A stretch of DNA of 64,000 nt, from assembly GCA_022509085.1 (NCBI GenBank), contig JAFLTW010000002.1, positions 54,455-118,454 of the forward strand, written 5' to 3'. The notes beneath the pieces were generated by a model. The model was not told where the DNA came from, made no database searches, and saw only the letters and a program-made list of their open reading frames with translations. Source of the DNA: Muribaculaceae bacterium. Lineage in GTDB: Bacteria > Bacteroidota > Bacteroidia > Bacteroidales > Muribaculaceae. Shown here one piece after another: positions 838 through 1,222 of this stretch (position 1 is its first letter; each line of letters begins with the position of its first letter). The position numbers were made by a program, and so were the translations under genes.

Positions 838-1080
838 GGGAGGGCTGTTCAAGAGAGGGATTGGCTCGCATTCGCTCGCCCATCCCTTAGGGAGGATGCG
901 GTTCAAGGAGGAGAGGGATTGGCTCGCATACGCTCGCCCATCCCTGAGGGGAAGCTGTTCAAGAGGAGAGGGATTGGCTCGCATGCGCTCGTCCATCCCT
1001 TGAGGGGGAAGCTGTTCAAGGAGGAGAGGGATTGGCTCGCATACGCTCGCCCATCCCTGAGTGGGGGAAGCTGTTCAAGG
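838..1080. repeat. Four 33-bp hairpin repeats (GAGGGATTGGCTCGCATACGCTCGCCCATCCCT) with related linkers ending GTTCAAG; tRNA-linked/BIME-like array
   Basis: Copies at 855-887, 913-945, 968-1000 and 1026-1058; stem AGGGAT/ATCCCT. Confidence 0.95.
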
Positions 1081-1222
1081 ATTAAGAAAATCGGCTATAT
1101 CCCATTTTATGGGATTACGTGTTTAAGCTAAAGATGCCCCTCAAGCAAGCTTGGGAGCATCTTTTCTTAAACATATAAACCCACGCATTGCGTGAGTTTA
1201 TAGCCGATTTTCTTAATCCTTG
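1076..1222. mobile_element. 147-bp MITE-like or structured element with perfect 24-bp terminal inverted repeats
   Basis: CAAGGATTAAGAAAATCGGCTATA (1076-1099) and its exact reverse complement (1199-1222); three internal hairpins. Mobility is inferred, not shown. Confidence 0.6.

What the first reader, a model, noticed from the sequence alone, without database searches (positions are those of the whole stretch)
1076..1222. 147-bp cruciform element with perfect 24-bp TIRs fused to the CCA end of tRNA-Ser
Seen: the TIRs (1076-1099/1199-1222) enclose three hairpins: ATCCCAT/ATGGGAT (1099-1115); a long one with TGTTTAAG/CTTAAACA and AAAGATGC/GCATCTTT (1120-1173); and TAAAC-CACGC/GCGTG-GTTTA (1176-1200). 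Nearly every base can pair in a four-way junction. The right TIR overlaps the tRNA CCA by 2 nt and the left TIR overlaps the last linker of the repeat array. There is no coding capacity and I found no clear TSD. Inference: a non-autonomous MITE targeting tRNA 3' ends, or a structured RNA co-transcribed with and processed from the tRNA.
Basis: partly seen in the sequence, partly recalled or inferred. Interest (0 to 1): 0.65.

Follow-up and report, generated by a model that had tools for sequence, protein, structure and literature searches.

The report
Four-armed fold trailing tRNA-Ser genes
The 147-base palindromic structure that begins at the last bases of a serine tRNA gene is not a jumping element; it is one copy of a conserved, strand-specific four-armed fold that, with the repeats behind it that copy the tRNA's tail, forms a gut-Bacteroidales version of E. 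coli's still unexplained "tRNA-linked repeats".

Summary
In detail: there is a perfect 24-bp inverted repeat, a four-way junction, -82 kcal/mol and z = -15. By sequence the element is single-copy, and no IS or transposase shares its ends, so the MITE reading fails. All four tRNA-Ser loci of this genome carry the same architecture with almost unrelated sequence. It starts 0-1 nt after the discriminator and has a closing stem P1, hairpin P2, a 57-64-nt hairpin P3 with a CUUG tip, and hairpin P4. Tandem units follow, each ending in a copy of that tRNA's own 3' end. A covariance model built only from six foreign elements (Tidjanibacter, Alistipes, a sister genus, a metagenome contig) finds the window's element at 99 bits. 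It is the only hit in 64 kb, and it scores best on the tRNA strand. Compensatory changes, GNRA/CUUG loops and purine-purine mismatches all point to selection on the tRNA-sense strand. The repeat units share a hairpin motif with enterobacterial tRNA-linked repeats (the RtT family). In relatives a plain terminator occupies the element's position. My best reading is a structured 3'-trailer module (terminator/processing platform) of a tRNA-linked-repeat locus. Its function is unproven because RNA data were unavailable. This scan has noted TLR-like units on other genomes before.

The parts
1221..1308 (-). tRNA-Ser(UGA) gene with CCA encoded. Its last two bases, C75 and A76 (1222, 1221), are also the first bases of stem P1.
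   Evidence: ARAGORN; Rfam tRNA, 59.8 bits.
1076..1222 (-). The 147-nt four-way-junction element as a whole. It is the tRNA-proximal module of the trailer and sits at the 'T1' position of a tRNA-linked-repeat locus.
   Evidence: Fold of -82 kcal/mol, z = -15. R2, a model built without any sequence of this genome, scores 99 bits (E 1e-24) on the minus strand and 56.8 bits on the plus strand; it is the only hit in the window.
1200..1222 (-). P1, 5' strand: A-rich and beginning CAAGG.
   Evidence: Most tRNA trailers of this genome begin CAA(A/G).
1178..1198 (-). P2 hairpin (9 bp, loop AAU), followed by a T-rich stretch. It resembles an intrinsic terminator.
   Evidence: Across 22 elements a mean of 5.9 of the 10 bases after P2 are T.
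1116..1177 (-). P3, a 62-nt long hairpin with a G(CUUG)C tetraloop tip (CAAG-CUUG-CUUG).
   Evidence: P3 length is 57-64 nt in 22 elements.
1099..1115 (-). P4 hairpin (7 bp, loop AAA).
1076..1098 (-). P1, 3' strand: T-rich and ending CCTTG. It is the 'left TIR' and overlaps the first linker of the array.
   Evidence: I2, D2.
838..1075 (-). Four tandem 55-59-nt units. Each consists of a linker, a hairpin (cores at 1027-1058, 969-1000, 914-945 and 856-887, with tandem G.A pairs on the tRNA strand), and then AATCCCTCTCC, a copy of the tRNA's T-stem and acceptor 3' strand. They are shortened tRNA-linked-repeat units.
   Evidence: The motif is shared with enterobacterial TLRs and with the fuller units of the same family.
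1350..1357 (-). Candidate Bacteroidetes-type -7 box (TAACTTTG) of the tRNA-Ser promoter, 42 nt upstream of the tRNA. This is inferred only.
   Evidence: Read from the sequence. The consensus TAnnTTTG comes from established knowledge of Bacteroides promoters and was not tested.
464..832 (+). Convergent neighbour: a YccF-family inner-membrane protein gene. Its transcript would run into the array and the element in antisense.
   Evidence: Pfam YccF, 1.5e-37.

Best explanation
The element is a conserved cis module of the tRNA-Ser transcription unit. It is a four-way-junction fold of the 3' trailer that sits where related genomes have the plain A-tract/hairpin/U-tract terminator. It is followed by one or more tRNA-linked-repeat (TLR) units that end in a copy of the tRNA's own 3' end. 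What is shown: the architecture, its conservation through compensatory change, its fixed polarity, and its linkage to tRNA ends and to TLR units. What is inferred is the mechanism. The fold is made as RNA from the tRNA promoter. P2 plus the U-rich 5' strand of P3 acts as a leaky first terminator. On read-through the whole junction closes, with P1 starting at the first trailer base. The long, near-perfect P1 and P3 duplexes then serve as a double-strand-specific processing site and insulator. This separates the tRNA from the downstream TLR RNA and also blocks antisense transcription from the convergent gene.
For: 1. All four tRNA-Ser loci of the genome carry the fold, including the 3' fragment of tRNA-Ser(GGA) displaced by an integrase-bearing element. 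None of the other 42 tRNAs carries it.
2. The four paralogues share little beyond the ends and the P3 tip, yet 23 pairs show compensatory change.
3. On six foreign elements 90% of cells are paired, against 57% in shuffles and 39-47% when the partners are slid. 58 of 64 pairs have double changes. RNAalifold predicts the same junction on its own.
4. R2, built from those six alone, scores the window's element at 99 bits.
5. Strand specificity: the tRNA strand scores higher than the antisense strand for every tRNA-abutting element with R1. It is thermodynamically better in 21 of 26 elements that differ. Its 1x1 mismatches are purine-purine 22:2. It carries GNRA loops in P2 (6 of 16) and a CUUG loop at the P3 tip (8 of 16).
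6. Position: P1 starts 0-1 nt after the discriminator in the elements of G000, G202 and the Alistipes, Tidjanibacter and metagenome loci; in some genus g41 elements P1 also takes in the discriminator and CC.
7. Relatives have a simple terminator at this position, often followed by a full TLR unit. In G202 and L196 a canonical terminator follows the single TLR unit, which places the fold inside the tRNA transcription unit.
8. The 10 bases after P2 are T-rich (5.9 of 10 against a base frequency of 0.28), and the P1 5' strand is A-rich, as in ordinary tRNA terminators of this genome.
9. In a sister genus (g41), 18 of 41 genomes are hit, mostly at tRNA-Ser(GCU).
Against: The simple terminator scan does not flag P2 of this copy. 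Perfect 22-24-bp stems, and 'compensatory' change within them, can also arise at the DNA level through template-switch correction of quasi-palindromes, so covariation alone does not prove an RNA function. The alignment A5 was fitted to the model. The elements are related to one another, so the sign test overstates its significance. Two family members do not abut a tRNA, and one of them lies in the opposite orientation to the nearest tRNA (L193, L195). The constant P3 length and the conserved P3 tip are not required by a terminator model. The element is not found at tRNA-Ser(UGA) in 30 same-genus genomes, so it is dispensable there.
Confidence: 0.55

Rival explanations
1. The element is a non-autonomous mobile DNA element: a MITE or palindromic element, or a mini integrative cassette moved in trans by tRNA-targeting integrases. 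It would insert at tRNA 3' ends and terminators, and the tRNA-end copies behind it would be the duplicated attachment site.
For: It has perfect terminal inverted repeats and an AT-rich composition (31-46% GC against 52.5% for the genome). Its distribution is patchy: it is absent at tRNA-Ser(UGA) of 30 same-genus genomes, and the exact array motif occurs in 0 of 400 family genomes. Two copies lie away from a tRNA end, one of them inverted and one between ~40-bp direct repeats. tRNA-Ser is a proven integration site in this genome and in genus g41. The 18-19-nt tRNA-end copy begins in the T-loop, where one class of integrases crosses over (established knowledge: Williams 2002). Some pseudo-ends carry CCA next to genes that do not encode CCA.
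Against: The element is single-copy by sequence. The four paralogues are ~50% identical rather than near-identical. No TSD is present, and no transposase or IS has matching ends. Every tRNA-abutting copy has the same orientation. The strand-specific RNA-type features are not expected of a DNA transposon. The integrase at tRNA-Ser(GGA) crosses over in the anticodon loop and displaced the element rather than carrying it. The 24-mer is absent from viral contigs.
Confidence: 0.17
2. The element is a neutral by-product. The tRNA's terminator region was duplicated, together with the tRNA end, by unequal recombination or slippage. Replication template switching then remodelled it into a large quasi-palindrome that keeps its arms perfect. 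No selected function lies beyond ordinary termination.
For: The fold can be read as three consecutive A-tract/hairpin/U-tract modules. Ordinary tRNA terminators in this genome have the same CAAGAAA...TTTCTTG ends. The stems are perfectly Watson-Crick. A tRNA-Pro in the same window has a plain half-tRNA-plus-terminator duplication.
Against: P3 length is held at 57-64 nt, and the CUUG tip and GNRA loops are conserved across genera while the stems turn over completely. The order P2-P3-P4 is kept relative to the tRNA in all tRNA-abutting copies. The purine-purine bias of the mismatches is confined to one strand.
Confidence: 0.15
3. The element is the 5' domain of an independent, processed small RNA (the four-way junction plus the T-arm/acceptor-strand mimic, about 200 nt) with a trans function. 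This would be analogous to RrA/B/F of E. coli rRNA operons.
For: E. coli TLRs behind 5S rRNA are transcribed by read-through of T1, processed, and bind Hfq and CsrA in vitro (PMC8144298). The junction is extremely stable and carries GNRA and CUUG loops typical of stable RNAs. The hairpin motif ahead of the tRNA-end copy is conserved from Enterobacterales to Verrucomicrobiota and Bacteroidales.
Against: There are no expression data. The stems show no conserved single-stranded seed. The sequences diverge almost completely between paralogues, which argues against base-pairing targets. Bacteroidetes lack Hfq (established knowledge).
Confidence: 0.13

Closest known systems
tRNA-linked repeats (TLRs) of E. 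coli and other Enterobacterales: the tyrT-tyrV 178-bp repeats / RttR (Rfam RtT, RF00391), and rrA/rrB/rrF behind 5S rRNA (Egan & Landy 1978; Rudd 1999; Stenum et al. 2021, PMC8144298)
   Same: The locus lies directly behind a tRNA gene on the same strand. Its units end in 18-19 nt identical to that tRNA's 3' end and occur in tandem arrays. The layout is dual-terminator (T1 - body - tRNA-end copy - T2). It shares the hairpin GGC-GA-GC-loop-GC-GA-G(C/T)C followed by CAATCC. The fuller units of the same Bacteroidales family also share the GGATGAGAACCC box. Function is unknown in both.
   Different: The 147-nt four-way junction has no counterpart in the enterobacterial units: those have a simple hairpin, or nothing, at that position. 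The Rfam RtT model does not match any Bacteroidales unit even at E 0.5. The units in this window are cut down to 55-59 nt.
Bidirectional intrinsic terminators (A-tract / GC hairpin / U-tract) behind tRNA genes
   Same: The position is the same (starting at the first trailer base) and the ends are the same CAA(A/G)...(C/T)TTG as ordinary tRNA terminators of this genome. P2 is followed by a T-rich run.
   Different: The element has three hairpins closed by a 23-bp stem in place of one hairpin. It has a conserved P3 length and tip. No U-tract follows the closing stem, and the consensus scan does not flag it.
Bacterial MITE-like palindromic elements (Correia/NEMIS, ERIC/IRU, RUP, REPIN)
   Same: The size is 100-150 bp, with long terminal inverted repeats, an intergenic position and folding as RNA. 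Correia transcripts are cut by RNase III (established knowledge).
   Different: Those families have tens to hundreds of near-identical copies, target-site duplications (TA for Correia), both orientations, and no tie to tRNA ends. Here there are four highly divergent copies, no TSD and one orientation, always at a tRNA end.
att-site remnants and cis-mobilisable elements (CIMEs) at tRNA genes
   Same: Direct repeats of the tRNA 3' end flank a short non-coding segment, and tRNA-Ser is an active integration site in this family.
   Different: No integrase is linked to it. The repeat period is 55-205 bp. A structured, strand-specific content is conserved across genera and phyla, which decayed island ends would not keep.

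Membership tests
MITE (non-autonomous TIR transposon) | Terminal inverted repeats | tested here: met
   24/24 bp. However, the arms are also stem P1 of a conserved fold.
MITE (non-autonomous TIR transposon) | Several near-identical copies in the genome | tested here: not met
   BLAST and a fuzzy search for the 24-mer find only this copy. The three structural paralogues are ~50% identical.
MITE (non-autonomous TIR transposon) | Target-site duplication | tested here: not met
   The flanks GCTGTT| and |GCGGAG share no repeat. The CAAG seen after some other copies is the generic tRNA-trailer start.
MITE (non-autonomous TIR transposon) | Autonomous partner (IS/transposase) with matching ends | tested here: not met
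   No second occurrence of the ends in the 2.41-Mb assembly, which is 94% complete, and none in viral contigs.
MITE (non-autonomous TIR transposon) | Filled and empty alleles at orthologous sites | tested here: inconclusive
   No genome among 220 same-genus species shares the flanking DNA. Strain-level data are not on hand.
tRNA-linked repeat (TLR) locus | Lies immediately downstream of a tRNA or rRNA gene, on the same strand | tested here: met
   The element starts at C75 of tRNA-Ser, and the array follows it.
tRNA-linked repeat (TLR) locus | Each unit ends in a copy of the last ~18-19 nt of the upstream tRNA | tested here: met
   18/18 at tRNA-Ser(CGA). At this window's tRNA the copy is AATCCCTCTCC with a 2-nt deletion. 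Each array matches its own tRNA.
tRNA-linked repeat (TLR) locus | Sequence kinship with the type TLRs | tested here: met
   The hairpin motif plus CAATCC is shared with Pseudenterobacter, Photorhabdus, Enterobacter and Franconibacter TLRs, in loci that also hold gathering-score RtT hits. A diverged form occurs in E. coli tyrT.
Rfam RtT (RF00391) | Match to the covariance model at or near the gathering score | tested here: not met
   No RtT hit at E <= 1 in window 1-2400, nor at E <= 0.5 in seven Bacteroidales TLR loci. I therefore do not file it under RtT.
tRNA-linked repeat (TLR) locus | Transcribed with the tRNA and processed | not testable with these tools
Intrinsic (Rho-independent) terminator | GC-rich hairpin directly followed by a U-tract | tested here: inconclusive
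   P2 is followed by 6 T in 10 bases here, and by a mean of 5.9 over 22 elements. The consensus scan does not call it in this copy.
Any described RNA family (Rfam 15) | Covariance-model match | tested here: not met
   Only chance-level microRNA and sX4 matches.
Four-way-junction tRNA-trailer family defined here (models R1, R2) | P1-P2-P3-P4 junction recognised by a model trained without this genome | tested here: met
   R2 scores 99 bits, E 1e-24, at 1079-1219(-). E3 scores 76.7 and E2 63.1 bits.

The most novel reading that the evidence does not exclude
The four-way junction and the T-arm/acceptor-strand mimic behind it would be one processed RNA of about 200 nt. It would be a Bacteroidales member of an ancient, cross-phylum class of tRNA-operon RNAs, biased towards tRNA-Ser. 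In this reading its 3' end imitates the tRNA's 3' half in order to engage tRNA-end enzymes (RNase P/Z, the CCA-adding enzyme), for example as a natural external guide sequence or a decoy. The junction would be its ruler-like stabilising and processing domain.
Probability: 0.1. Interest if true: 0.8.

Novelty: new variant of a known kind. Interest (0 to 1): 0.6.

Why it matters
tRNA-linked repeats have been known since 1978 and, according to the one recent study I could find (PMC8144298), still have no function and are described only in Enterobacterales. This locus shows the same logic in abundant gut Bacteroidales, with a sequence motif shared across three phyla. It adds a new, sharply defined structured module with more than 30 examples, strong covariation, a fixed arm length and conserved tetraloops. 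That gives a concrete RNA motif that can be modelled, searched for and mutated. It also suggests that TLRs are an old and general feature of tRNA (especially tRNA-Ser) transcription units and not an E. coli curiosity. Practically, these palindromes sit where many assemblies break (at tRNA-Ser ends) and next to the preferred integration site of Bacteroides mobilisable elements and of NBU2-based vectors.

Tried and rejected
- Copy search for the whole element and for the 24-mer in the genome, in 60 relatives and in viral contigs: only the element itself was found.
- Rfam at permissive E-values: nothing.
- Empty-site comparison: neither flanking protein nor 2 kb of flanking DNA is conserved next to tRNA-Ser(UGA) in same-genus genomes.
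- MAFFT alignment of seven elements was too poor to model. I used the four-sequence alignment with a supplied structure, then model-based realignment.
- Whole-genome searches with the covariance models are insensitive because of the pre-filters. Known elements were missed, so the counts are lower bounds.
- The global pattern scan returned mostly chance hits in GC-rich genomes. I kept only those where the motif is followed by a copy of a nearby tRNA end.
- Considered and dropped: an integron attC site (the R''/R' consensus is absent); a retron ncRNA (no reverse transcriptase nearby, and four tRNA-linked copies); a self-cleaving ribozyme (helices almost without internal loops, no Rfam match); a tRNA-like cloverleaf (no T-loop or D-loop signatures, junctions of zero length); a CRISPR-like array (the 'spacers' are homologous).
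- The integrase beside intact tRNA-Ser(GGA) is not the element's partner: it recombined in the anticodon loop and displaced the old 3' part together with its element.

Full report
**The observation**

The arms 1076-1099 and 1199-1222 are 24/24 complementary. tRNA-Ser(UGA) lies on the minus strand at 1221-1308. The element is therefore the tRNA's immediate 3' flank and shares the C and A of its CCA.

Read on the tRNA strand, the 147 nt fold into a four-way junction:
- P1: 1222-1200 paired with 1098-1076
- P2: 1198-1178
- P3: 1177-1116
- P4: 1115-1099

The energy is -82 kcal/mol, against -28.8 for shuffles (z = -15). The other strand reaches -75.9 kcal/mol. There is no credible ORF and no flanking direct repeat.

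**It is not a multicopy element**

BLAST and a fuzzy search that allowed six mismatches in the 24-mer find no second copy in the 2.41-Mb, 94%-complete assembly. Sixty relatives and the viral contig collection also have none. Rfam has no matching family.

**It has structural paralogues at every tRNA-Ser**

I scanned the 3' flanks of all 46 tRNAs. tRNA-Ser(CGA) and tRNA-Ser(GCU) each carry a 149-nt or 144-nt element with the same architecture, starting at the same base.

A fourth element, of 151 nt, follows a 3' fragment of tRNA-Ser(GGA) at C12:334811-334961. The intact tRNA-Ser(GGA) on another contig is followed by a tyrosine integrase gene (Arm-DNA-bind_5 plus Phage_int_SAM_5). An integrative element therefore recombined in the anticodon loop and displaced the original 3' part together with its trailer.

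So all four native tRNA-Ser ends carry the fold, and no other tRNA does. The four sequences agree only at the ends and at the tip of P3. Even so, 23 pairs of the closing stem and the P3 tip show compensatory change.

**The element and the array are one system**

Each of the four elements is followed by tandem units. On the tRNA strand a unit consists of three parts:
- a linker;
- a hairpin GGC-GA-GC-loop-GC-GA-GCC, with tandem G.A pairs that become pyrimidine mismatches on the other strand;
- CAATCC followed by a copy of the T-stem and acceptor 3' strand of the neighbouring tRNA. This copy differs between arrays exactly as the tRNAs differ.

That is the hallmark of tRNA-linked repeats (TLRs). 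They were described behind E. coli tyrT in 1978 and are still without a function (PMC8144298).

A pattern scan for the hairpin motif returned many chance hits. It also returned true TLRs in which the motif is followed by 8-15 nt (15 nt in most) identical to the 3' part of an upstream tRNA on the same strand. There were 19 such cases, 16 of them at tRNA-Ser. They come from Enterobacterales, Alcanivorax relatives, Verrucomicrobiota and Alistipes.
- In Pseudenterobacter, 181-bp units behind tRNA-Ser(GGA) end in this motif plus the tRNA end, and the same locus holds a gathering-score RtT hit behind a second tRNA gene.
- E. coli tyrT has a diverged form.
- In the window's own family, tRNA-Ser(CGA) is often followed by a plain terminator hairpin, then a fuller TLR body (the GGATGAGAACCC...GGGTTCG box, also present in enterics, plus the same hairpin), then the tRNA-end copy and a second terminator.

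The window's 55-59-nt units look like deletion derivatives of that fuller body. The Rfam RtT model itself does not match any Bacteroidales unit, so I do not file the locus under RtT.

**The four-way junction is a family of its own**

The motif loci revealed the same junction after other tRNAs:
- tRNA-Glu and tRNA-Tyr in a Tidjanibacter MAG;
- tRNA-Glu and tRNA-Arg in Alistipes MAGs;
- tRNA-Tyr and tRNA-Cys on metagenome contigs.

Model R1, built from the four paralogues, then found more. These follow tRNA-Ser(CGA) in a sister genus and tRNA-Ser(GCU, GGA, CGA) in Tidjanibacter and Alistipes.

On six foreign elements aligned to the model, 90% of cells pair. The figure is 57% in shuffles and 39-47% with slid partners. 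58 of 64 pairs carry double changes. RNAalifold predicts the same junction on its own.

Model R2 was built from those six only. It scores the window's element at 99 bits (E 1e-24), the sole hit in 64 kb. In the sister genus g41 it hits 18 of 41 genomes, mostly at tRNA-Ser(GCU) or at displaced 3' fragments of it.

Across 22 elements P3 measures 57-64 nt although its sequence turns over completely, and junction nucleotides are nearly absent.

**RNA or DNA?**

Several features are specific to the tRNA strand.
- Every tRNA-abutting element scores higher on the tRNA strand than on the antisense strand.
- The tRNA strand folds better in 21 cases against 5.
- Its single mismatches are purine-purine 22:2, and G.U pairs number 72 against 55.
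- Its loops include GNRA in P2 (6 of 16) and G(CUUG)C at the P3 tip (8 of 16), whereas the antisense loops are unremarkable.

These features favour selection on a single strand made from the tRNA promoter.

There are caveats.
- The elements are related to one another.
- The alignment was fitted to the model.
- Perfect stems can be kept by template-switch correction at the DNA level.
- Transcription-linked deamination could also bias G.U counts.
- No expression data could be obtained.

**Mechanism (inferred)**

The element sits where relatives have the tRNA's A-tract/hairpin/U-tract terminator. Ordinary tRNA terminators of this genome begin CAA(A/G) right after the discriminator and end ...TTG, as P1 does. 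P2 is followed by a T-rich run, a mean of 5.9 of 10 bases. In G202 and L196 a canonical terminator comes only after the single TLR unit.

I therefore read the fold as an elaborated first terminator and processing platform. P2 gives leaky termination. On read-through, P1 and P3 close into long duplexes. These would suit a double-strand-specific RNase, and they also face the convergent yccF gene as an insulator.

The simple terminator scan does not call P2 in this copy. The fixed P3 length and tip also hint at a further, unknown partner.

**Rivals**

A mobile-DNA reading keeps some weight. The distribution is patchy. Two copies lie away from tRNA ends. tRNA-Ser is an integration hot spot. Some pseudo-ends carry CCA next to CCA-less genes. 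It fails the copy-number, TSD, partner and orientation tests. A neutral palindrome and an independent trans-acting sRNA are the other rivals.

**Prior knowledge**

Earlier notes of this scan describe TLR-like units in several other phyla. They agree with this reading but were not re-tested here. I found no paper describing TLRs outside Enterobacterales or this junction, though the searches were limited.

Noticed in passing
G000 C33:114620-116000 (L005) and C12:334960-335600 (L004 1162-1783): An integrative element sits in tRNA-Ser(GGA). The intact tRNA is followed by a tyrosine integrase gene. The displaced 3' fragment starts in the anticodon arm and lies on another contig, next to a Cro/C1-type HTH gene. 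GACGTGAAAAT-type repeats occur at both ends.
   Followed up: partly
window 150-352: Five phased copies of a ~23-bp core (TACCCACTTATAACACG...) lie upstream of an AAA-ATPase gene that starts at 120 on the minus strand. Similar short repeats (ACACCCAATTTTACACCCAA) lie next to tRNA-Ser in many relatives, where they look like the ends of integrated elements.
   Followed up: no
L201, L203, L207, L214, L215, L226 (same family, behind tRNA-Ser CGA); L068; L190: Full-length TLR units in this Bacteroidales family share the box GGATGAGAACCC...GGGTTCG with Pseudenterobacter. They also share its GGATGAGAA core with E. coli tyrT units. This is sequence conservation across phyla that the Rfam RtT model does not capture.
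   Followed up: partly
L092, L118, L134, L146 (Verrucomicrobiota); L089, L126, L140 (Alcanivorax group): The same hairpin motif, followed by a 15-nt copy of the upstream tRNA's end (mostly tRNA-Ser), occurs 100-150 nt behind tRNA genes in these distant groups.
   Followed up: partly
L196 (Alistipes, tRNA-Ser CGA) and L214: The repeat's pseudo-3' end carries CCA although the tRNA gene in front of it does not encode CCA.
   Followed up: no
L193 1501-1636 and L195 1501-1634 (two Alistipes MAGs): Two related members of the junction family do not abut a tRNA. One lies between tRNA-Gln plus its terminator and a duplicated tRNA-Gln 3' part, in the opposite orientation. The other lies between ~40-bp direct repeats with no recognised RNA gene nearby.
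   Followed up: partly
L007, L009, L028, L022, L031 and others (same-genus contigs): Many assemblies break within a few bases of the 3' end of tRNA-Ser(UGA). This would be expected if palindromes or repeats like these lie there, so the absences counted in relatives are uncertain.
   Followed up: no
window 23038-23285: tRNA-Pro(UGG) is followed by a duplication of its 3' half and terminator. My scan found the tRNA tail repeated 77 nt downstream. This is a simpler tRNA-end duplication in the same window, and the junction models do not hit it.
   Followed up: partly
G000, all tRNA genes: Most tRNA genes of this genome lack an encoded CCA. After the discriminator they continue CAA(A/G), which is also the first strand of their terminator stem.
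   Followed up: no
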